Source: Escherichia phage Mt1B1_P17
Direction: 5' to 3' (one strand)
DNA length: 64,000 nt
Sequence record: NC_052662.1
The translations under genes were made by a program, and so were the position numbers. Shown piece by piece: positions 71 through 8,929 of the stretch; the first letter of the stretch is position 1; every line of letters starts with the position of its first letter. A model generated the notes under the pieces. The model searched no databases. It worked only from the letters and a program-made list of their open reading frames with translations, and was not told the origin of the DNA.

Positions 71-1186
71 TTATTGTTTCTGGGCTTTTTTAAGTTCAGC
101 AGCTTTCTGACTAATCAGTTCAGAAGAAGATTTAGCTACAGGTTGAGTATTGATCACGTCAACACCACGTTCTGTTCCAAATTCTTTCTTAACTGCGTCC
201 ACTTCTGCACGTGCTTTTTCGAATGCTTTGACGATAGTTTCAGCGATATCTTTATTGTCTACCAGATATTTAACGAGAGCTTCAACTTTGTCTTCTTCTA
301 CGAAAGAATAGGATTTAACAACAGTTGTATATTCTTCTTCGATACGAGCTTGTTCAGCTTTACGAAGTTCTTCTGCTTCCTGTTCTGCCTTAGCGATTTT
401 TTCCTGTGCTTCAAGTTCTGCGGCTGCACGTGCATCTGCGGCTGCTTTTTCTACAGCTTCAGCGATCTGTGCTTTCATCAGTTCTTGGAATTCAGCAGAT
501 TTCAGGAATTCTTCTTTGTTGATATTTTCCAAAGGGGTTTCTCCTTTATTGATTCCAGTTGTGTTTGCAGATTTATCACCTGCGGGGTTAGCCTCTGCAT
601 CCACAGAGTTTGTATTAGCTTTAGCGTGAGCTTTCACTAAATAATCTTTAACTTGACTTTGTTTCAAGGAACTCTTAACGAGATTACTCAAAGCATCGTC
701 TAAAACGTCCTCAAAGAAATCAATGGAGATCATTACATCACCATCAACAACTTGATAATCAGTAACACGAACAACAGGTTTAGCAACCTCTTCAACTTCA
801 ACATTCAGTCCGTCAACTTTAAAGCCAACAGAGAACATACCGTTATCTGAACAGAAAATTGCAACGTTCGCATCGAAGTCAGCATCAATAACGTAAACCC
901 AATCCCAACCAGCTTCAAATTTTTCACGCACTTTTTCAGAAATGCGATCCATCACTTGTTGAATATAGCTTTTACGTAACTCTGTAACATCTTCTCCCAT
1001 TTTAGTGAGAGCTTCTAACTTTTCAAAAGTTATGTCTGGAGATCCGTCTGACTTAAATAAAAGGGGGGTATTGTAACCAGATGCCGCTCCACCTTGAAAA
1101 TCAAAAGTGTAAGCAATATGAGCACCTAGTGACTCTTCCGTAGCTTTTCCAGAAAAGTCTACGTTAGTTAAATATGTATTTGCCAC
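71..1186 (-). CDS. putative head scaffolding or morphogenesis protein
   Basis: 371 aa; C-terminal half is a highly charged Ala/Glu/Lys coiled-coil-like stretch (AEAEELRKAEQARIEEE); sits downstream of terminase and putative portal on the same strand. Confidence 0.35.
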   Translation of the reverse strand: MANTYLTNVDFSGKATEESLGAHIAYTFDFQGGAASGYNTPLLFKSDGSPDITFEKLEALTKMGEDVTELRKSYIQQVMDRISEKVREKFEAGWDWVYVIDADFDANVAIFCSDNGMFSVGFKVDGLNVEVEEVAKPVVRVTDYQVVDGDVMISIDFFEDVLDDALSNLVKSSLKQSQVKDYLVKAHAKANTNSVDAEANPAGDKSANTTGINKGETPLENINKEEFLKSAEFQELMKAQIAEAVEKAAADARAAAELEAQEKIAKAEQEAEELRKAEQARIEEEYTTVVKSYSFVEEDKVEALVKYLVDNKDIAETIVKAFEKARAEVDAVKKEFGTERGVDVINTQPVAKSSSELISQKAAELKKAQKQ

Positions 1187-1188
1187 GA

Positions 1189-1668
1189 TTAGTCCTTCTT
1201 GACTTTAACGCCCATTGCGCCTATACTCAAACCTTTAAGAACGCCGTCTTTACGAGCTTGATATAATTCAGGGTCGTTGAATTGGATTTTAACGAGGGGA
1301 GTTCCTTCCACAACGAGTTCGTCACCAATGTAACAATCGACTTCATTTACCCAAGCTTTAATTGGAGAAAACTTATCGGTGTTCTTCATGTGACCAAGAT
1401 TACCACTAATGTTGGTAATATTCTCATTGAAGTTGTCAACCATCTTCCTGATTTCCAAATCAGACATGCGCTCTCCGTGGAGATCGTCTTCTTCAGGTGG
1501 ACAATACAAGACCTCAATAACCTGCATCTTTTCTTCATCAAATTTATTTTGTTTGACTAGAGTTTCAGGTTTTTGAGATGGTATAGAATCTTGTTGGGAT
1601 TCAGAATTCTCTTTAAAACCAGCGAAGGTTTTGAAGAGTTCCCACAGTGTATCTTTATTGAGTTCCAT
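1189..1668 (-). CDS. hypothetical head-assembly protein
   Basis: 159 aa ORF, 3 nt from the neighbouring ORF, in the packaging/head module; no motif recognised. Confidence 0.3.
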   Translation of the reverse strand: MELNKDTLWELFKTFAGFKENSESQQDSIPSQKPETLVKQNKFDEEKMQVIEVLYCPPEEDDLHGERMSDLEIRKMVDNFNENITNISGNLGHMKNTDKFSPIKAWVNEVDCYIGDELVVEGTPLVKIQFNDPELYQARKDGVLKGLSIGAMGVKVKKD

Positions 1669-1697
1669 TTGAAACCTCTTAAAAACAGATATCCCAT

Positions 1698-1736
1698 AAA
1701 TCTTAGTCTACAGGATATTTGTTGTTTTGTCAATAG
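1698..1736 (-). promoter_or_regulatory. sigma70-like promoter (TTGACA, 17 nt spacer, TAGACT) for the 1189..1668 gene
   Basis: plus-strand ttgtcaatag at 1727..1736 reads CTATTGACAA on the minus strand; one of four copies of this motif in the window. Confidence 0.45.
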
Positions 1737-1761
1737 AAAAATTAAAAAATATTAAATATTT

Positions 1762-3327
1762 TTAATTCGACAGGTTTTGTGCTGAAGGATCTAAAGCAGA
1801 AACAGTATCAGATGTTCCAGTTCCCGCTGTAGCTAAACCATCTCCTGATCGTGAAGTTTTGTCAGGCATATAGTTATCCATGAATTCAAAGAATTTCTCT
1901 TTATTGGCAACAATATCATCAGGGATGCGATATTCAAAACCAATTTTTTCAAGAAACTCGTTAATAACTTCTGGGGTTAAAGGTATTGCACCAGAGGCTA
2001 CCAACTGCTGAATAGCTTTAGCATTTACTTCAATATCAGGATCACCCATTTCACCACTGACAAACTTAGGCATATCTTCATCAGAAAGGAAGATATTGTT
2101 TAGTCGTAGTGTTTGAGGGATCAGTTGAGAGTTTATAGCTTCTACAACAATATCTACATCTCGCTCAATAAAATGAGACAATAGTGTTTGTTTGTTGTCA
2201 GAAAGCGCAAAACTTCCTGCGTCACCATCACCCATAATCAACACACCCGCACCAAAGCGGTTATAAATATCCAGTTTACGTTGTTTGATTAGTGCTTGAG
2301 TGTCAAACTGTTTACCCGTGCCATCAACACCTTGGAATACAAGATCGTATTGACGCATCACTGTGCCTTCATAAACGTCTGAAGGCAACACCATGTAGGC
2401 TTGCTCACCAGAGTGCAGGTTAGCGATGTTGGCTTGGAGAACTCGAAGAGATTGTGCTTCATCCCCCGCAGGATCTAAAGATGCCCTGTTTAGAATGTCA
2501 CTTGGAACCTTAAGAACTGGCATACCGCCTAAATCTTTAGATACCCCAATAACCTCAAATTCCTGAATAAGAGATTTTTCACGCCAGCTACGATATACAG
2601 CTAAAAGCGGACTAACTCCTAATGGGTTATTCTCTGTAATGTTGCTACCAACAAATAAAACTTTACTGAAAGGAATTTCTTTAATACCCGTTTCTAAAGT
2701 TGTATTACCTGGAGCTAACATCGTATTGGTGATATTCTGGTTAACAGATAGAATAGAACGTCCGTCTGCCGAATATGTAAAAGGTTGAGCCATGTGAAGA
2801 GTGTCTTGTGGTCTAAAAGCCAGTTTGGTTAATCGCCAATACCCAAAGTAAGGACTTTTAGGGTCTTCATCCAACTCATAAACTTTCTCTGCGAATGCAA
2901 AACCGTATTGCTTATATGTCAAAAGTGATCTAACATATTGACGTAGAGGGGCTTGCATATTGCGCAACATGTAATCAATAAACTTAGCAGCTTTTCTTGA
3001 CTTTGCCGAGTTTACATTGTATTTTATCTTGAAATCAAAGAATGCTCTATCTACAAAGATATATGTAGCGTCAAGAGCAGTAGCTACATCAGGGTCTTCA
3101 CCCATCTCTTTAAAAGTGCGAATACATTCTGGGAAACGAGTCTCATAAGGTTGCATGAAATTCGTAAATGCTTTGATTGAGTTTAATCCGATCGTTCCTA
3201 TTTCAGGTGACAGGAGTAACGTTTTCTCTTTCTCTGCCTCTTTTGTTGGAGAGAGAGCAGCTTTATTTGCAGCACCTTTGTCCCAGTATTCTGACTTTTT
3301 AGTGTACGTTCTTTTTCCTGTTGACAC
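1762..3327 (-). CDS. putative portal protein
   Basis: 521 aa ORF immediately downstream of the large terminase on the same strand; size and position typical of a portal; no diagnostic motif read. Confidence 0.45.
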   Translation of the reverse strand: MSTGKRTYTKKSEYWDKGAANKAALSPTKEAEKEKTLLLSPEIGTIGLNSIKAFTNFMQPYETRFPECIRTFKEMGEDPDVATALDATYIFVDRAFFDFKIKYNVNSAKSRKAAKFIDYMLRNMQAPLRQYVRSLLTYKQYGFAFAEKVYELDEDPKSPYFGYWRLTKLAFRPQDTLHMAQPFTYSADGRSILSVNQNITNTMLAPGNTTLETGIKEIPFSKVLFVGSNITENNPLGVSPLLAVYRSWREKSLIQEFEVIGVSKDLGGMPVLKVPSDILNRASLDPAGDEAQSLRVLQANIANLHSGEQAYMVLPSDVYEGTVMRQYDLVFQGVDGTGKQFDTQALIKQRKLDIYNRFGAGVLIMGDGDAGSFALSDNKQTLLSHFIERDVDIVVEAINSQLIPQTLRLNNIFLSDEDMPKFVSGEMGDPDIEVNAKAIQQLVASGAIPLTPEVINEFLEKIGFEYRIPDDIVANKEKFFEFMDNYMPDKTSRSGDGLATAGTGTSDTVSALDPSAQNLSN

Positions 3328-3428
3328 TTGTTCCTCCAGTCAGGTATAAAATCGTTAAGGCAAGGCTGTATTATATACAACCTCACCTATCTAGTTATAA
3401 TACACTTTAAAGTGACTTTTGTCAACAA

Positions 3429-5504
3429 TTATCTTTTACGGACACTATACGGTTGGTGAAATCCGCTGTTCATTCTACTGTATCCTGTAGGAGCATTTGT
3501 TGTTGTAGGGATAGCTACTGCTTTGAAAGTATTCTCTTTTGACAGAGTATTAAAACAAGAGGCAGCAGCATCGGGAATGTCATCTTTAATAGTGGCTGTA
3601 GATCTTTCACCATTGAAAGATTCCAATTCTTTATAAAAGTGGGTTAAAGTTTCCACATTAGGGAAAGAATCTTCAACAATATAAACAAAACCGTTTTGAC
3701 ACGCACTACTAAAAGGCATAAAACGCTGAAGCTTTTTCTTGTTACCTGGCATAGCATCTGGTTTAACAACAAAACCTTCTAGAATAAGTTTCTTTGCAGA
3801 CTCTGTGTATTCTATTGTCCCAGCACCAGATGGGTCTTTAGGAAGCACTACTGTAACTTCTGGTCCATCAATCTTACATTGATTTAGAATCAGGTTATCC
3901 CTTTCCCCAGGTAGTCTTCGAAACCTTCCGAAAATTTTACTTTTCTCATCCACAGCATCATAATCATAGTCGCCAAAGATGTAGATATTACCATCTTGAT
4001 CTTTACCCATTTTGACAGATGTTGTATAGTCTGGATAACGGTAAGTTTCTGTAGGAACTGAAACAGCTTTATCCCATGCTCGCATTAGTTTAAGATTGTT
4101 AGGAACATCTTTATAAGATATTTTATGTAACCATTCACGTTGAAAGAAAGATTCTTTCTGGATACGTGCAAACCAACAACCGTCCAGAAGCTGTGCTCTT
4201 TTGATAGCTGTTTGTGATTTAAGCTGTGCTAAGTAATTAGGGTTAAGCCTAATGAGTTCTGGGTTATCAAATATTGTCCCACCAATAAATACGAAAGTTT
4301 GTGGTTCAATAACAACTGTCTCCCCTGTATTAGGGTTTTCCATGAAACAGTTTTCTGGATATTTTTCTTTCAGTTCTTCAGGTGTGTCAGCAAAAACAGG
4401 TTCATCGTTAACAATGATGAAATATTTTTGTTTACCACACATATCTTCTCTAGGATAACCACCCTCATCAAGATAAGGTAACACCCAATTCAAAACCCAA
4501 CTATCTGCGTCAGGGTTACATGTGCACAACATGAAACTTGTTTCTGACTCTGAACGCATACGTCCCAGAAGATAGAGCATTTCATATTGTGTGAAGTGGG
4601 TTAACTCGTCAAAACCTACCATTGAATACTGTGTACCCTGATGGTTTGTTTCTGCTGTTACGTTATCATTTTCCAAATGGTCAAATTTGAGGGTTCCACC
4701 ACCAGTGGCTTCAAAAATGATATCCATTGTACTTTCTTTTACGTGTGGTTGTAAAGGAAGATACAAACGTTTTGCTTCTGTAAACAGACCACCTGGTTTA
4801 CGGTGAGCAGTGGTGTTCTTACGGAAAAGTATTCCACCAAACAAAGGGTCTTTGTAGGCGTATTTTAAAGCTTTCAGCAATAGCAGACGAGACTTGCCGC
4901 TATTCCCAGTAACGAAGCAGTGATCGCCACGTCTAAAGACAATATAGCTGCTTGGAGTCTCAAAACAATATTTCTTATCATCTGTTGAAATAACCTCGTG
5001 TATTTTTAAGTAAGTGCTCTTTTTACCAGGTATGTTAAAAGGAACACGTTTACCGAATGGATTTTCTACATAACCTTGCAGGGGTTTTCCTATTTGCTGT
5101 AATGCAATAAGATCTCCTACAAGAATCTCGAAATGTTTCTTTGATTTCTTTTTCTTATAGAATACAAAACGGTGTTCCATACTAAGTTCTTGGAATAATC
5201 CTACACCATTTGTTATTCTGTATAGGTTATCTCCATTTAAATCGTATTCTACAAAATAAGGTGTTACCAATTCTAAACGCTTATTCTTAGGATTGTATTG
5301 GTAAATATCCTCTCCCGAATATTCACTAATCTGCCTCCAACCATCTTTTGTAAGATATTCCGTTTCAGCAGAAACACATCCAGCGGCACCACCATAAATC
5401 ATAACTTCTGGCATTAAATCCATTGCAAGAGTCTGTTTACCTGGTTGAGCCTTTACCTCAATATCTACTCCAGCTAAACTACCTGCTGCCTTTTTCTTTG
5501 CCAC
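3429..5504 (-). CDS. terminase large subunit (ATPase plus nuclease), interrupted by an in-frame mini-intein
   Basis: 691 aa; Walker B-like VGFDELTHF, LCTCNP motif; P-loop is split as GGAAG / intein / SGKS, which rejoins to GGAAGSGKS. Confidence 0.85.
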   Translation of the reverse strand: MAKKKAAGSLAGVDIEVKAQPGKQTLAMDLMPEVMIYGGAAGCVSAETEYLTKDGWRQISEYSGEDIYQYNPKNKRLELVTPYFVEYDLNGDNLYRITNGVGLFQELSMEHRFVFYKKKKSKKHFEILVGDLIALQQIGKPLQGYVENPFGKRVPFNIPGKKSTYLKIHEVISTDDKKYCFETPSSYIVFRRGDHCFVTGNSGKSRLLLLKALKYAYKDPLFGGILFRKNTTAHRKPGGLFTEAKRLYLPLQPHVKESTMDIIFEATGGGTLKFDHLENDNVTAETNHQGTQYSMVGFDELTHFTQYEMLYLLGRMRSESETSFMLCTCNPDADSWVLNWVLPYLDEGGYPREDMCGKQKYFIIVNDEPVFADTPEELKEKYPENCFMENPNTGETVVIEPQTFVFIGGTIFDNPELIRLNPNYLAQLKSQTAIKRAQLLDGCWFARIQKESFFQREWLHKISYKDVPNNLKLMRAWDKAVSVPTETYRYPDYTTSVKMGKDQDGNIYIFGDYDYDAVDEKSKIFGRFRRLPGERDNLILNQCKIDGPEVTVVLPKDPSGAGTIEYTESAKKLILEGFVVKPDAMPGNKKKLQRFMPFSSACQNGFVYIVEDSFPNVETLTHFYKELESFNGERSTATIKDDIPDAAASCFNTLSKENTFKAVAIPTTTNAPTGYSRMNSGFHQPYSVRKR
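4902..5378 (-). mobile_element. mini-intein (Hint domain, about 159 aa, no endonuclease domain) inside the terminase P-loop
   Basis: residues 43-201: starts CVSAETEYLTKDGW (block A-like), internal SMEH (block B-like), ends ...HCFVTGN followed by Ser +1; excision restores the Walker A motif. Confidence 0.7.
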
Positions 5505-5513
5505 ATTCCCTCC

Positions 5514-5858
5514 TTATTCAGCAATAATACCTTTTTCTTGCAGTGTTTTAATATATGTTTGTAAACCTAAAACCTTTCGTCTATCTTGCTCCCAAAGAGC
5601 ATTGTTTTGAGTTTGGTTGTTAACAACTTCAGATCTACTAACCCCTCTTGCAATTTGATTTTTAGTGTATGGCACAGGTGTCGATACTTTATCCATCAAG
5701 TCCGAATCTGGACCTTTAACCTTTTCTATGGCTACAGCCTTACACTCATCAATAAGAACTGGGGAAACTTTTGTTGATGATGAACAACCCGTCATCATTA
5801 GGGGCAAAGCAAGACATACTGCCAGAATTAGTTTTTGCATAATTCGTTGTATCCTCAT
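5514..5858 (-). CDS. putative o-spanin (outer-membrane lipoprotein, Rz1-like)
   Basis: 114 aa; signal peptide with lipobox LMMTGC; its start is embedded out of frame in the 3' end of the upstream i-spanin-like ORF. Confidence 0.5.
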   Translation of the reverse strand: MRIQRIMQKLILAVCLALPLMMTGCSSSTKVSPVLIDECKAVAIEKVKGPDSDLMDKVSTPVPYTKNQIARGVSRSEVVNNQTQNNALWEQDRRKVLGLQTYIKTLQEKGIIAE

Positions 5859-6141
5859 TGATCGTTTGTTTCTTCTTCTCTAAATCTGCTTTTAATTGTG
5901 CATTGTTTTTAGACAAGTTGTTTATTTGAGTATTTAATAATGCTCTTTCTTCGTCTGCTCTTTTTTGAAGAACATCAAAATCTTGTTTTGCTTTTGCTTG
6001 GGCTGCTTGATATACTTGCGTTTGATAGGCAACACCATCTTTGTAGCCAGACTCACGTATCTTGTTATAAGCAAACATTCCGGCAAGAATAAGAACAACA
6101 ATTAAAACAAAACTTAATACAGTTTTAGTCTTTAGATTCAT
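5749..6141 (-). CDS. putative i-spanin (Rz-like)
   Basis: 130 aa; N-terminal transmembrane helix (LSFVLIVVLILAGMFAY) followed by a coiled-coil region; overlaps the lipoprotein ORF. Confidence 0.5.
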   Translation of the reverse strand: MNLKTKTVLSFVLIVVLILAGMFAYNKIRESGYKDGVAYQTQVYQAAQAKAKQDFDVLQKRADEERALLNTQINNLSKNNAQLKADLEKKKQTINEDTTNYAKTNSGSMSCFAPNDDGLFIINKSFPSSY

Positions 6142-7006: not shown

Positions 7007-7085
7007 TGGAGGCGGGAATTGGATTTGAACCAATGATCTCCAGCATATGAAACTGGCGAGGACGACCAGACTCCTCTATCCCGCT
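7007..7085 (-). tRNA. tRNA-Met (anticodon CAT; could also be Ile-lysidine or initiator)
   Basis: cloverleaf read by hand: anticodon stem CCAGT/GCTGG, loop TTCATAT, T-arm ATTGG-TTCAAAT-CCAAT, CCA encoded; position 1-72 mismatched. Confidence 0.7.
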
Positions 7086-7091
7086 ATTAGG

Positions 7092-7161
7092 TATCCCGTG
7101 CTGGATTCGAACCAGCATCACAATAAGTTGTGGAACTCTTATCCTGTAAGTCTAACGGGAA
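7092..7161 (-). tRNA. atypical tRNA-like element (possible pseudo-tRNA)
   Basis: perfect T-arm GCTGG-TTCGAAT-CCAGC and 6/7 bp acceptor stem, but only about 70 nt and no canonical anticodon arm could be folded. Confidence 0.3.
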
Positions 7162-7163
7162 AT

Positions 7164-7237
7164 TGGTTGTTTCGACAAGAATCGAACTTGTGTCTCACGA
7201 TTATCAGTCGTGGGTTCTACCATTGAACTACGAAACA
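7164..7237 (-). tRNA. tRNA-Ile (anticodon GAT)
   Basis: acceptor TGTTTCG/CGAAACA, D-arm GTTC..GAAC, anticodon stem CACGA/TCGTG with loop CTGATAA, T-loop TTCGATT, CCA encoded. Confidence 0.8.
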
Positions 7238-7243
7238 TTAAAT

Positions 7244-7320
7244 TGGTCGGAATTGCAGGATTCGAACCTGCGACCCTACGCTCCCAAAGCGTATGCTCTA
7301 CCAAACTGAGCTAAATTCCG
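7244..7320 (-). tRNA. tRNA-Pro (anticodon TGG)
   Basis: acceptor CGGAATT/AATTCCG, D-arm GCTC..GAGC, anticodon stem TACGC/GCGTA with loop TTTGGGA, T-arm GCAGG-TTCGAAT-CCTGC, CCA encoded. Confidence 0.8.
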
Positions 7321-7325
7321 TTATA

Positions 7326-7401
7326 TGGCTGGTCTGTCTGGATTTGAACCAAACCTACGACAGTCAAAGTGTCGTGTGCTACCTGACTACACTACAAACC
7401 A
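7326..7401 (-). tRNA. tRNA-Gln (anticodon TTG)
   Basis: acceptor TGGTTTG/CAGACCA (one G-U pair), anticodon stem CGACA/TGTCG with loop CTTTGAC, T-loop TTCAAAT, CCA encoded. Confidence 0.7.
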
Positions 7402-7499
7402 ATAAATCATTTAATGAAGGGCAACCAGAAGAGGTGTGAGAGAAGGAGAAAACCATGAGTAAAAGAGAAAGTTTTCTGGCAACCCTTTATTAAATAATT

Positions 7500-7573
7500 T
7501 GGAGCGTTCTACGAGGATCGAACTCGTGCCGCCGACTTGGAAGGACGGAATGCTACCGCTACACCAAGAACGC
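7500..7573 (-). tRNA. tRNA-Gly (anticodon TCC), tentative
   Basis: acceptor GCGTTCT/AGAACGC, T-arm ACGAG-TTCGATC-CTCGT, anticodon loop CTTCCAA with one T-T mismatch in the stem, CCA encoded. Confidence 0.55.
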
Positions 7574-7584
7574 CCTACCTCTTT

Positions 7585-7613
7585 ACTATACTACATTTTA
7601 CTATTGGTTGTCA
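7585..7613 (-). promoter_or_regulatory. sigma70-like promoter (TTGACA, 17 nt spacer, TATAGT) reading into the tRNA sub-cluster
   Basis: CTATTGACAA motif copy on the minus strand, about 35 nt upstream of the tRNA-Gly 5' end. Confidence 0.5.
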
Positions 7614-7887
7614 ATAGTTTTATTGAGTGGGACAGTGACGAGTATCCCATTGGGTGACTAGCCCTACGTTCGGTAAGCTAACTTAAAATAATACAAAACC
7701 AAAGTCAAATATTATTCTTCGTTGCTGTCGATGGGAGAGCCGCTTCTTCTTTTGCCCCATCCAACCCTACTCCGGTCAAGTTTCAGGTAACTCTTTTTGT
7801 GATCAACACAATACTAAGAACACTGTCTTTCGAGCAGACCTTGTGCACAGGATACGACGATCAATCACAGTGCTCTTAATGTTGTGT

Positions 7888-7962
7888 TGGTGCTCCCACT
7901 CTGAATCGAACAGAGATCCACGGATTACAAAACCGTTGTAATAGCCATTATACTATAGGAGC
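7888..7962 (-). tRNA. tRNA-Thr (anticodon TGT), tentative
   Basis: acceptor GCTCCTA/TGGGAGC, T-arm CTCTG-TTCGATT-CAGAG, anticodon loop TTTGTAA on a 4 bp stem with one U-U pair, CCA encoded. Confidence 0.5.
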
Positions 7963-7968
7963 AAAGCT

Positions 7969-8045
7969 GGGACTCGGCAGGATTCGATACCTGCAATTCC
8001 AGAAGCCTCTTGGCGACTGGGGGTTTACCTTAACTCTACAAGTCC
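7969..8045 (-). tRNA. atypical tRNA-like element with 8-nt T-loop
   Basis: 7 bp acceptor stem (GGACTTG/CGAGTCC) and T-arm GCAGG-TATCGAAT-CCTGC, but the central region folds as an extended hairpin, not a canonical anticodon arm; no CCA. Confidence 0.3.
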
Positions 8046-8052
8046 ATAATTC

Positions 8053-8138
8053 TGGCGATGAGTATAGGATTTGAACCTATATCGTTCTTTCGAACACGGA
8101 TTAACAGTCCGCCGCTTAAACCATTCAGCCAACTCATC
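8053..8138 (-). tRNA. type II (long variable arm) tRNA, anticodon loop reads GTT
   Basis: acceptor GATGAGT/ACTCATC, anticodon stem GCGGA/TCCGT with loop CTGTTAA, 15-nt variable arm hairpin GTTCGAAAGAAC, T-arm ATAGG-TTCAAAT-CCTAT, CCA encoded. Confidence 0.5.
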
Positions 8139-8144
8139 TTAATT

Positions 8145-8232
8145 TGGTGGTGAGTGATGGAGTCGAACCACCCGAATCGCAATGATAACAGATTTACAGT
8201 CTGCCCCGCTACCCCTACGGAATTAACTCACC
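8145..8232 (-). tRNA. tRNA-Tyr (anticodon GTA), type II
   Basis: acceptor GGTGAGT/ACTCACC, anticodon stem GCAGA/TCTGT with loop CTGTAAA, long variable arm, T-arm GGTGG-TTCGACT-CCATC, CCA encoded. Confidence 0.7.
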
Positions 8233-8362
8233 TAAATACTAATATTTAAATTCTTTTTAAAATAGCCAGTGTTCACACCACTAACTATGAGTTATCGGTA
8301 AGATGGTGGAGGCCATCTGCCGAAAGTTTACTCTATTAAAGTAAGCTATATTAAAAAGAACT

Positions 8363-8448
8363 TGGCGGTAGATGTAGGACTCGAACCTACACGCCGTTTC
8401 CGACTACAGTTTAGCAAACTGTCGTGGCTACCATTTCACCAATCTACC
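8363..8448 (-). tRNA. tRNA-Ser (anticodon GCT), type II
   Basis: acceptor GGTAGAT/ATCTACC, anticodon stem ACAGT/ACTGT with loop TTGCTAA, long variable arm, T-arm GTAGG-TTCGAGT-CCTAC, CCA encoded. Confidence 0.8.
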
Positions 8449-8452
8449 AATC

Positions 8453-8543
8453 TGGCGGAAGGAGGGAGAGTCGAACTCCCAAGGCTCTTTCAAGCTCGGC
8501 GGTTTTCAAGACCGTTTTCGTCGCCACGTCGATTTGCCCTTCC
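8453..8543 (-). tRNA. tRNA-Ser (anticodon TGA), type II
   Basis: acceptor GGAAGGG/TCCTTCC, anticodon loop CTTGAAA, long variable arm, T-arm GGGAG-TTCGACT-CTCCC, CCA encoded. Confidence 0.7.
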
Positions 8544-8551
8544 ATACTTAT

Positions 8552-8580
8552 AATCTAACATAAAATAATGTTAGTTGTCA
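8552..8580 (-). promoter_or_regulatory. sigma70-like promoter (TTGACA, 17 nt spacer, TAGATT) upstream of the tRNA-Ser pair
   Basis: third copy of the CTATTGACAA motif on the minus strand. Confidence 0.4.
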
Positions 8581-8777
8581 ATAGTTTTTTAAAACATTTT
8601 ACCATGAATGGTGACTCCACCAACCCCCGTTCTCAACGAACGGTGCTCTTCGAGCATTTATGTCTTCTAATATAACCGTGGCCTTTGTTTATAATGTCTG
8701 ACATACTTGCCTCATTCTCTGCCACCATGATCAGTAGTGGGTTCAAATCACTTGAGCTAATTCATGTTAAAATGTTC

Positions 8778-8852
8778 TGGTGTCTTTACAAGGAATCGAA
8801 CCTTGACTAAGAGTTTAGAAGACTCCTGTGCTATCCATTACACCATAAAGAC
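8778..8852 (-). tRNA. tRNA-Arg (anticodon TCT)
   Basis: acceptor GTCTTTA/TAAAGAC, D-arm GTGT..CAC, anticodon stem GGAGT/ACTCT with loop CTTCTAA, T-arm CAAGG-TTCGATT-CCTTG, CCA encoded. Confidence 0.8.
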
Positions 8853-8854
8853 GT

Positions 8855-8929
8855 TGGTGGCCCTGGCTGGTTTCGATCCAGCTACCTATCGGTTATGAGC
8901 CGACAGCTCTCCCATTGAGCTACAGGGCC
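8855..8929 (-). tRNA. tRNA-Met (anticodon CAT; second CAT tRNA)
   Basis: perfect acceptor GGCCCTG/CAGGGCC, D-arm GCTC..GAGC, anticodon stem GTCGG/CCGAT with loop CTCATAA, T-loop ATCGAAA, CCA encoded. Confidence 0.7.

What the first reader, a model, noticed from the sequence alone, without database searches (positions are those of the whole stretch)
4902..5378. Mini-intein inserted in the Walker A P-loop of the large terminase
The terminase ORF reads ...MIYGGAAG | CVSAETEYLTKDGW ... HCFVTGN | SGKSRLLLL.... Removing the 159-residue insert (starting with Cys, ending with Asn, followed by Ser) yields a textbook P-loop GGAAGSGKS. The insert has Hint block A-like and block B-like segments and no endonuclease domain. 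The penultimate residue is Gly rather than the usual His, which is uncommon and worth noting.
Basis: partly seen in the sequence, partly recalled or inferred. Interest (0 to 1): 0.7.

Follow-up and report, generated by a model that had tools for sequence, protein, structure and literature searches.

The report
Unannotated mini-intein splitting terminase P-loop
The large terminase gene of this phAPEC8-like E. coli phage carries a real, probably active 159-residue self-splicing mini-intein inside its ATP-binding loop; this is a known kind of element, but standard domain models miss it and no database record examined labels it.

Summary
On the minus strand, window 4902..5378 encodes 159 in-frame residues (Cys1...Thr-Gly-Asn, then Ser+1). 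They split the only Walker A motif of a 691-aa TerL (3429..5504). Removing them gives GAAGSGKS, the sequence found in insert-free homologs.

- Related inserts sit in RtcB, PolA, primase-helicase, RNR and other TerL proteins, often with LAGLIDADG endonuclease motifs.
- TerL alleles with and without the insert share up to 87% extein identity.
- Intein dN/dS is 0.04-0.07, the same as the extein.

The penultimate Gly is the norm for this lineage (175 of 179 members). In AceL NrdHF it is required, and Arg B:11 compensates; that Arg is present here as R70.

The lineage combines an invariant Cys1 with class-3-like Cys F:4 and Thr G:5, so the chemical route (class 1 or class 3) is open.

Pfam and NCBIfam miss the intein, no source name examined mentions it, and the BASEL table lists 0 inteins for a phage that carries it.

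Verdict: a real, ordinary-in-kind P-loop intein and a new, overlooked member. Interest is moderate.

The parts
3429..5504 (-). Large terminase (TerL) precursor ORF, 691 aa, GTG start, stop codon at 3429-3431
   Evidence: ORF. PF03237 Terminase_6N, residues 202-460, E 5e-17; phrog_979 terminase large subunit, E 1e-216; 100% identical to annotated TerL genes of Phapecoctavirus phages.
5379..5504 (-). N-extein, TerL residues 1-42, ending ...MIYGGAAG (first half of Walker A)
   Evidence: aligns with the N-termini of insert-free homologs up to GGAAG.
4902..5378 (-). Mini-intein, 159 aa (Cys1...Asn159), HINT fold, no homing endonuclease
5337..5378 (-). Block A: C1-V-S-A-E-T6-E7-Y-L9-T-K-D-G13-W14
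   Evidence: C1 179/179, T6 164/179, E7 169/179, G13 169/179, W14 166/179 across the lineage.
5160..5201 (-). Block B, with Ser66 (B:7), His69 (B:10), Arg70 (B:11) and Phe71 (B:12, not Trp)
   Evidence: S/T 171/179, H 179/179, R 99/179, B:12 always hydrophobic among the residues listed. One search aligns this segment to SPNHRM of the AceL NrdHF intein.
4929..4976 (-). Block F, with Tyr137-Cys138 (F:4 by motif position), Pro142 and Arg149-Arg150
   Evidence: C 176/179, Y 161/179, P 121/179, R149 173/179. The F:4 assignment is inferred from spacing to the C-terminal Asn and from PMC7891396 (C124 at C2:4).
4899..4922 (-). Block G: ...F-V-Thr157(G:5)-Gly158(G:6)-Asn159(G:7) | Ser202 (+1, first C-extein residue)
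   Evidence: last three residues TGN in 131/179 and SGN in 31/179; G at G:6 175/179; N 179/179; +1 residue S 105, C 41, T 33.
3432..4901 (-). C-extein, TerL residues 202-691, starting SGKSRLLLL (second half of Walker A), followed by the rest of the ATPase domain and the nuclease domain
   Evidence: Terminase_6N 202-460; TIGR01630 559-654.

Best explanation
The segment encodes a functional mini-intein without a homing endonuclease. It is permanently resident in the Walker A (P-loop) motif of the large terminase of a Phapecoctavirus (phAPEC8-like E. coli myovirus).

Proposed pathway. TerL is translated as a 78.7-kDa precursor that cannot bind ATP, because its P-loop is split as GGAAG | intein | SGKS. 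The intein folds into a HINT domain and excises itself. This joins Gly42 to Ser202 and yields a 60.1-kDa TerL with GAAGSGKS plus a free 18.6-kDa intein.

Likely chemistry (inferred, not shown):
1. Ser66 and His69 of block B strain the Gly42-Cys43 bond.
2. Cys1 forms the first thioester. Cys138 (block F position 4) and Thr157 (G:5) either assist or relay the acyl group.
3. The N-extein is transferred to the Ser202 hydroxyl.
4. Asn159 cyclises and releases the intein. Arg70 (B:11) takes the role usually played by the penultimate His, which is Gly158 here.
5. An O-to-N shift makes the peptide bond.

My split for the first nucleophile is about 0.55 for a class-1 start at Cys1, about 0.30 for a class-3 start at Cys138, and the remainder for both routes being usable.

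The element has no endonuclease, so it cannot home. It persists because imprecise loss would destroy an essential active site. It is fixed and vertically inherited across the sampled Stephanstirmvirinae.
For: - Shown: the coordinates are exact and the insert is in frame.
- Shown: the precursor has no Walker A, and one appears after excision.
- Shown: insert-free homologs read GGAAGSGKS at this exact point.
- Shown: insert-bearing and insert-free TerL alleles share up to 87% (P0033 vs P0063) and 86% (P0027 vs P0061) extein identity.
- Shown: the family profile finds the AceL NrdHF intein by sequence, E 4e-11. That intein was experimentally shown to splice.
- Shown: the same element occurs at catalytic motifs of unrelated proteins. 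These are RtcB (GVDIG|C...TGN|CGM), PolA, and Avunavirus TerL, plus primase-helicase, RNR, SpoVR and SAM synthetase.
- Shown: larger versions at the same TerL site carry LAGLIDADG-like motifs.
- Shown: catalytic residues are conserved in 179 lineage members. C1 179/179, His B:10 179/179, Cys F:4 176/179, Asn 179/179, and the +1 residue is always S, C or T.
- Shown: intein dN/dS is 0.04-0.07, against 0.035-0.067 for the extein, with saturated synonymous sites.
- From the literature: in AceL NrdHF, G145H abolishes splicing and Arg69 (B:11) assists Asn cyclisation (PMC7891396).
- From the literature: mycobacteriophage TerL inteins splice readily, and an unspliced intein is incompatible with the TerL pentamer (PMC5050341).
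- Inference: these are viable lytic phages, with more than 130 isolates carrying the insert, so an essential ATPase has to be restored.
Against: - Splicing has not been observed for this protein or any close relative.
- No curated intein HMM matches it at E up to 1 (Pfam and NCBIfam).
- The penultimate His is absent.
- The assignment of Cys138 to block F position 4 rests on motif spacing and family conservation, not on a printed residue-level structural alignment.
- A C-terminal-only profile did not retrieve 6zgq. The crystal construct carries C124A and N146A, which may be why.
Confidence: 0.9

Rival explanations
1. It is an intein, but it splices by the class 3 route. Cys138 (block F) attacks the Gly42-Cys43 peptide bond directly and forms a block-F branched thioester. 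The N-extein then passes to Ser202. Cys1 is dispensable for catalysis.
For: - Cys F:4 is present in 176/179 members and Thr/Ser G:5 in 166/179.
- The +1 residue is Ser or Thr in 138/179.
- The closest solved relative by both sequence and structure is a proven class 3 intein in which C124 is essential (PMC7891396).
- Class 3 inteins are typically phage-derived and sit in P-loops of helicases and terminases (PMC2807308).
- WCT inteins that begin with Ser1 or Cys1 exist. From my memory of Tori & Perler 2011, which is not held in the library, such inteins still use the class 3 route.
Against: - Cys1 is invariant in 179/179 lineage members and in all 31 TerL inserts. That is unexpected if it plays no role, since canonical class 3 inteins and AceL NrdHF have non-nucleophilic residue 1.
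- B:12 is Phe or another hydrophobic residue rather than the class 3 Trp (only the six commonest residues per position were printed).
- B:7 Ser/Thr plus B:10 His is the class 1 'TxxH' arrangement.
Confidence: 0.3
2. It is a degenerate or domesticated former intein that no longer splices. It stays in TerL as an integral domain, or TerL function is supplied in some other way.
For: No curated HMM hit. The penultimate His is missing. The endonuclease is lost. The insert is fixed in the whole phage subfamily, so no close insert-free allele exists there (nearest about 64% identity).
Against: - The precursor has no P-loop at all.
- Every residue needed for splicing is conserved across relatives only 26-32% identical.
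- dN/dS is 0.04-0.07.
- Gly at G:6 is the functional state in the validated relative.
- Each phage record shows a single place matching this TerL.
Confidence: 0.03
3. It is a conditional intein. Splicing is gated, for example by a Cys1-Cys138 disulfide or another redox or temperature cue, so that terminase activity appears only late in infection or in suitable host physiology.
For: Two invariant cysteines are predicted to lie in one active site. Redox-responsive behaviour has been reported for a class 3 DnaB intein (PMC6195587, title and abstract only).
Against: No direct evidence. The E. coli cytoplasm is reducing. AceL NrdHF and mycobacteriophage TerL inteins splice fast and constitutively. 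The Cys-Cys distance could not be measured.
Confidence: 0.07

Closest known systems
AceL NrdHF class 3 split intein (PDB 6zgq; Hoffmann et al. 2020, PMC7891396)
   Different: AceL NrdHF starts with Ala1, is naturally split around a GIY-YIG gene, and sits in RNR NrdHF. The window intein starts with an invariant Cys1, is contiguous, and sits in the TerL P-loop. Identity is only about 20%.
Mycobacteriophage TerL P-loop inteins (TerL1-a/b; Kelley et al. 2016, PMC5050341)
   Same: These are also inteins interrupting the Walker A motif of the large terminase ATPase domain. They were shown to splice, and the unspliced form is incompatible with the TerL pentamer.
   Different: They are in a different TerL family (Terminase_1, not Terminase_6N). 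The site differs, since the classic site lies between the Lys and Thr of GK|T, whereas here it is G|SGKS, three residues upstream. The known Terminase_6 insertion (TerL6-f) is in the C-motif. No sequence relationship to them was tested.
Canonical class 3 (WCT) inteins, e.g. MP-Be DnaB, Msm/Mch DnaB1 (PMC2807308, PMC7664689)
   Same: Cys at F:4, Thr at G:5, Ser/Thr at +1, P-loop location and phage association. The structures are among the Foldseek hits (6riy, 6bs8).
   Different: Those have a non-nucleophilic residue 1, Trp at B:12 and a penultimate His. The window intein has Cys1, Phe71 and Gly158.
HEN-containing inteins of the same lineage at the same TerL site (e.g. Avunavirus 19-1-2 TerL; metagenomic P0023, P0026, P0027)
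   Same: Same junctions (GGAAG|C...[ST]GN|SGKS) and same splicing blocks.
   Different: They are 301-329 aa long, with LAGLIDADG-like motifs between blocks B and F. The window copy is a 159-aa mini form with a short linker instead.

Membership tests
Intein (HINT-fold protein-splicing element) | In-frame insertion inside a conserved host-protein motif, absent from some orthologs | tested here: met
   GGAAG|159 aa|SGKS versus uninterrupted GGAAGSGKS in homologs of about 500-530 aa. Insert-bearing and insert-free alleles share up to 87% extein identity.
Intein (HINT-fold protein-splicing element) | HINT fold | tested here: met
Intein (HINT-fold protein-splicing element) | N-terminal Cys/Ser, block B (T/S)xxH, C-terminal Asn, and a +1 Cys/Ser/Thr | tested here: met
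   Cys1, Ser66-x-x-His69, Asn159 and Ser+1. All are conserved in the lineage.
Intein (HINT-fold protein-splicing element) | Penultimate His (G:6); common but not obligatory | tested here: not met
   Gly158. Gly occurs in 175/179 lineage members. G145H abolishes splicing in the solved relative, where Arg B:11 compensates. R70 is present here.
Intein (HINT-fold protein-splicing element) | Match to curated intein/Hint HMMs | tested here: not met
   No Pfam or NCBIfam hit to the insert at E up to 1. The Pfam hits of other lineage members scanned fall outside the lineage's splicing domains; inside the inteins only weak LAGLIDADG_3 matches appear.
Intein (HINT-fold protein-splicing element) | Actual excision and extein ligation | not testable with these tools
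   Needs expression and SDS-PAGE or MS. Indirect support comes from the essential P-loop, viable phages and purifying selection.
Mini-intein (no homing endonuclease) | Splicing domain only, no LAGLIDADG/HNH/GIY-YIG domain between blocks B and F | tested here: met
   159 aa, no endonuclease HMM hit. The AF2 secondary structure is almost all beta-strand with a single short helix. Lineage median length is 315 aa, and only 12 of 179 are shorter than 200 aa.
Class 3 intein (WCT type) | No nucleophile at intein position 1 | tested here: not met
   Cys1, invariant in 179/179.
Class 3 intein (WCT type) | Trp at block B position 12 | tested here: not met
   Phe71. The commonest residues at this position in the lineage are V, M, I, F and L. 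AceL NrdHF also deviates, with Met.
Class 3 intein (WCT type) | Cys at block F position 4 and Thr at block G position 5, with Ser/Thr at +1 | tested here: met
   Cys138, Thr157, Ser+1. In the lineage: C 176/179, T/S 166/179, +1 S/T 138/179. Block numbering is inferred from motif spacing.
Class 3 intein (WCT type) | Block F branched thioester intermediate; Cys F:4 obligatory, residue 1 dispensable | not testable with these tools
   Requires C1A and C138A mutants and detection of intermediates.
Bacterial intein-like (BIL) domain | Lacks the +1 nucleophile and gives cleavage rather than splicing | tested here: not met
   Ser+1 is present, and the +1 residue is S, C or T in 179/179. The host is an essential enzyme whose active-site motif has to be rejoined.

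The most novel reading that the evidence does not exclude
The lineage to which this intein belongs has an invariant Cys1, a near-invariant Cys at F:4, Thr/Ser at G:5 and Gly-Asn at the C-terminus. It has at least 2,900 50%-identity cluster representatives at E of 1e-10 or better. It may be a mechanistic intermediate between class 1 and class 3 inteins. One version is a two-cysteine acyl relay, Cys1 to Cys138 to Ser+1. Another is a lineage able to use either nucleophile. AceL NrdHF (Ala1) would then be a derivative that completed the switch. That would argue for divergent rather than convergent origin of class 3 splicing. A related possibility is that the two active-site cysteines form a redox switch that gates terminase maturation.
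Probability: 0.15. Interest if true: 0.6.

Novelty: new member of a known kind. Interest (0 to 1): 0.4.

Why it matters
- Annotation. More than 130 GenBank genomes of a widely used coliphage group carry this intein in an essential gene. They include phAPEC8, phi92, BASEL phages and Klebsiella and Citrobacter relatives. None of the annotations or source names examined records it. One carefully curated collection lists 0 inteins for a carrier, and a 2024 paper states that no inteins are reported in coliphages.
- Practical consequences. TerL is often used for phylogeny, and the 477-nt insert inflates or distorts alignments. Recombinant TerL expression will give a 79-kDa precursor and spliced products.
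- Detection. Pfam and NCBIfam do not detect this large intein lineage, so intein censuses based on those models undercount phage inteins.
- Intein biology. A natural 159-aa Cys1/Ser+1 mini-intein from an E. coli phage, with a Thr-Gly-Asn terminus and a block-F cysteine, is a convenient mesophilic test case for how class 1 and class 3 chemistries relate. It could also be a protein-engineering tool.

Tried and rejected
- Pfam and NCBIfam scans of the insert and of the whole TerL gave no Hint or intein hit at E up to 1. The identification therefore does not rest on curated HMMs.
- A single-sequence phmmer search of the insert against PDB gave only chance-level hits. A profile of 31 inserts was needed.
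- Searches of the C-terminal 42 aa and of a C-terminal family profile (A2) against PDB did not retrieve 6zgq. The crystal construct carries C124A and N146A, which may be why. Block F/G equivalence therefore rests on the paper's residue list, the spacing and the structural match.
- Group I intron alternative: an Rfam gathering scan of the whole window found only 11 tRNAs and no intron. The insert is in frame and folds as a protein domain.
- Second copy of the intein family in the window: hmmsearch of six-frame stretches of 50 aa or more found only the TerL copy.
- A second Walker A elsewhere in TerL: none.
- Literature search for a prior report of this intein in phi92, phAPEC8 or Stephanstirmvirinae found none in the held library. 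Tori & Perler 2011 (PMC3133030) is not held, so what I say about it is from memory.
- AF2 model coordinates are not exposed. Cys1-Cys138-His69 distances could not be measured.
Full report
**1. What is in the sequence**

The finding lies on the minus strand. ORF 3429..5504 has a GTG start at 5502-5504 with AAGGAGG 4 nt upstream, and encodes 691 aa. It is a large terminase. It matches Pfam Terminase_6N over residues 202-460 (E 5e-17), PHROG 979 'terminase large subunit' (E 1e-216) and the TIGR01630 nuclease-domain model.

Residues 43-201 read CVSAETEYLTKDGW...HCFVTGN. They map exactly to window 4902..5378. Cys43 is codon 5376-5378, Asn201 is 4902-4904, and Ser202 is 4899-4901.

The precursor has no Walker A motif anywhere. 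Deleting the 159 residues creates a single GAAGSGKS. Calculated masses are 78.7 kDa (precursor), 60.1 kDa (spliced) and 18.6 kDa (insert).

**2. Where the window comes from**

The TerL DNA is 100% identical to Escherichia phages vB_EcoM_ESCO37, WPEC1 and iGC_PHA_EC001, and 99.5-99.7% identical to anhysbys, nieznany and tuntematon. These are Phapecoctavirus (phAPEC8-like) myoviruses of about 150 kb in the subfamily Stephanstirmvirinae.

A tblastn search with the insert alone finds it in 145 phage records:
- 99-100% identical in Phapecoctavirus, including phAPEC8, ESCO5/13 and Klebsiella phage ZCKP1;
- about 87% identical in Justusliebigvirus, including phi92 and the BASEL phages EmilieFrey and JohannJBalmer;
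- 79-84% identical in Klebsiella and Citrobacter relatives.

**3. Presence and absence at one exact point**

Among 120 TerL homologs, proteins of about 500-530 aa read ...GGAAGSGKS... without interruption. Homologs of about 656-700 aa carry a 146-159 aa insert, and homologs of about 746-849 aa carry a 246-328 aa insert. Every insert sits at the same peptide bond, starts with Cys, ends [ST]-G-N, and is followed by SGKS.

After in-silico splicing, insert-bearing proteins have insert-free counterparts with up to 87% extein identity (P0033 versus P0063, Vibrio phage 355E48.1) and 86% (P0027 versus P0061). This sporadic distribution is what a mobile intein produces. For the E. coli/Klebsiella clade the nearest insert-free allele found is only about 64% identical, so the intein appears fixed in that clade.

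**4. Fold and homology**

Curated HMMs do not see the insert (Pfam and NCBIfam, E up to 1). An AlphaFold2 model built from an alignment of 31 inserts (A1) is confident, with mean pLDDT 86 and pTM 0.80.
- Foldseek against the PDB returns only HINT domains at the top. The first is the AceL NrdHF class 3 split intein (6zgq, E 1e-5, TM about 0.7). It is followed by a bacterial intein-like domain, the hedgehog autoprocessing domain, and the Mch/Msm DnaB class 3, PRP8, DnaE, DnaB and RecA inteins.
- The A1 profile finds 6zgq by sequence alone at E 4e-11. It aligns the window's L-S-M-E-H-R-F to AceL's S-P-N-H-R-M.

**5. The same element in unrelated host proteins**

The insert's two halves match insertions in three other proteins:
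- RtcB of Corynebacterium phage Lederberg (GVDIG|CVDADTEYLT...FITGN|CGM);
- family-A DNA polymerase of Acinetobacter phage ME3 (DIH|CLSLDTEILT...VTGN|SIN);
- TerL of Avunavirus 19-1-2 (GGAAG|C...VVTGN|SGKS, 329 aa).

An exhaustive profile search of 1.84 billion cluster representatives finds 11,763 proteins at E of 1e-3 or better, 2,923 at 1e-10 or better and 147 at 1e-30 or better. The top 148 new proteins contain 179 full-length copies, up to several per protein. Hosts scanned include Toprim-DnaB primase-helicases, RNR large subunits, SpoVR and SAM synthetase.

Most copies sit at G|[S/C/T]GK[ST] in P-loops. Median length is 315 aa, with LAGLIDADG_3 matches inside, and only 12 of 179 are mini forms. 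In P0196 a neighbouring conventional intein is recognised by Pfam Intein_splicing, but the lineage member in the same protein is not.

**6. Lineage signature and the penultimate Gly**

Counts across the 179 copies:

| Position | Window residue | Lineage count |
|---|---|---|
| Residue 1 | Cys1 | C 179/179 |
| B:7 | Ser66 | S/T 171/179 |
| B:10 | His69 | H 179/179 |
| B:11 | Arg70 | R 99/179 |
| B:12 | Phe71 | V, M, I, F, L commonest |
| F:4 | Cys138 | C 176/179 |
| Four residues after F:4 | Pro142 | P 121/179 |
| G:5 | Thr157 | T/S 166/179 |
| G:6 | Gly158 | G 175/179 |
| G:7 | Asn159 | N 179/179 |
| +1 | Ser202 | S 105, C 41, T 33 |

It is also explained experimentally in AceL NrdHF, which has S65, H68, R69, M70, C124, P128, T144, G145, N146 and Ser+1. 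In that intein G145H abolishes splicing, because it clashes with Arg69. Arg69 contacts the C-scissile carbonyl and substitutes for the missing His. C124 is the essential branch-point nucleophile, and T144 positions His68 (PMC7891396).

The differences are that AceL NrdHF begins with Ala1 and is split, whereas this lineage begins with an invariant Cys.

**7. Evidence that it is active**

Between the window, EmilieFrey and Citrobacter phage Tr1, synonymous sites are saturated (dS above 1.6). Intein dN/dS is 0.04-0.07, indistinguishable from the exteins at 0.035-0.067. The insert has therefore been co-inherited with TerL under strong constraint.

TerL is essential, its only P-loop is split, and the carriers are viable lytic isolates. 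Mycobacteriophage TerL inteins splice efficiently in reporters, and an unspliced intein is sterically incompatible with the TerL pentamer (PMC5050341). No intron-like RNA is detected. Splicing itself was not observed here and remains an inference.

**8. Mechanism**

This part is inferred. The precursor folds, and Ser66 and His69 strain the Gly42-Cys43 bond. A thioester then forms at Cys1 (class 1 route) or at Cys138 (class 3 route). The acyl group moves to the Ser202 hydroxyl. Asn159 cyclises with help from Arg70 rather than a penultimate His. An O-to-N shift then gives GAAG-SGKS.
- The invariance of Cys1, the TxxH-like block B and the non-Trp B:12 favour a class 1 start.
- The conserved Cys F:4 and Thr G:5, the preference for Ser/Thr at +1, and the class 3 nature of the nearest solved relative favour a class 3 start.
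- I put these at roughly 0.55 and 0.30. A relay or dual-route mechanism is the most novel reading not excluded.

Without an endonuclease this copy cannot home. It persists because only precise deletion would be tolerated.

**9. Comparison with what is known, and novelty**

Inteins in TerL ATPase domains and P-loops are well documented (PMC5050341, PMC2807308). So are mini-inteins, inteins without a penultimate His, and class 3 variants. The kind is therefore known.

What appears unreported in the resources searched is this particular intein. Every source name examined for the protein is 'terminase large subunit' or 'hypothetical protein'. The BASEL table lists 0 inteins for EmilieFrey, whose TerL CDS (676..2760) contains it. 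[quoted passage not shown]

The insertion point G|SGKS is three residues upstream of the 'classic' GK|T site. It also differs from the Terminase_6 site described in mycobacteriophages, which is the C-motif.

I classify this as a new member of a known kind. It belongs to a large, HMM-invisible lineage with a hybrid class 1 / class 3 signature.

**10. Verdict**

Confidence that this is a splicing-competent intein is about 0.9. Interest is moderate (0.4). It is not surprising to an intein specialist, but it is a clear annotation gap in a much-used phage group and a convenient system for the class 1 versus class 3 question.

Noticed in passing
window 7010-8929 (minus strand): A cluster of 11 tRNA genes lies about 1.5 kb upstream of TerL (Rfam RF00005, 39-72 bits). 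Related phages have tRNAs in the equivalent position.
   Followed up: no
window 5514-5858 and 5749-6141 (minus strand): Two overlapping ORFs lie immediately upstream of TerL. The 114-aa ORF has a lipoprotein-like signal (LMMTGCSS), and the 130-aa ORF has an N-terminal hydrophobic segment. They correspond in position to the o-spanin and i-spanin annotated in EmilieFrey. The stop codon of the 114-aa ORF overlaps the TerL Shine-Dalgarno region.
   Followed up: partly
L006 (Klebsiella phage FKP3) 2075-4874: In this relative the TerL gene carries the intein and is also broken further downstream. It is annotated as two 'terminase large subunit' CDSs (2075-2938 and from 4343) separated by about 1.4 kb containing an HNH endonuclease gene, which looks like a second selfish insertion in the same gene. 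The 287-aa and 412-aa TerL fragments in the protein clusters may reflect similar interruptions.
   Followed up: no
L004 (Escherichia phage 19-1-2, Avunavirus) 2411-5156: This TerL has a 329-aa LAGLIDADG-type intein of the same lineage at the same site. The TerL is annotated as two CDSs, followed by an HNH homing endonuclease gene.
   Followed up: partly
BASEL collection S5 table (PMC8594841) versus L001 676-2760: EmilieFrey (Bas61) is listed with 0 inteins, although its TerL carries this intein (87% identical). The intein counts for the phi92-like BASEL phages may therefore each be one too low.
   Followed up: partly
P0196 (SAM synthetase, 1117 aa), residues 236-671 and 693-1010: This protein has two inteins. 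Pfam Intein_splicing recognises the first but not the second, which belongs to the Cys1...TGN lineage. This is a direct illustration that standard models miss the lineage.
   Followed up: no
phrog_32482 ('PhoH-like phosphate starvation-inducible'): This PHROG profile matches the insert's first 92 residues (E 1e-11). The PhoH-like family profile may therefore contain an intein of the same lineage.
   Followed up: no
window 4902-5378 versus the rest of TerL: Intein GC content is 34.4%, against 38.7% for the exteins and 38.4% for the window. The difference is small and its significance was not assessed.
   Followed up: no
window 1762-3327 (minus strand): A 521-aa ORF lies directly downstream of TerL, in the position of the portal protein gene annotated in EmilieFrey.
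   Followed up: no
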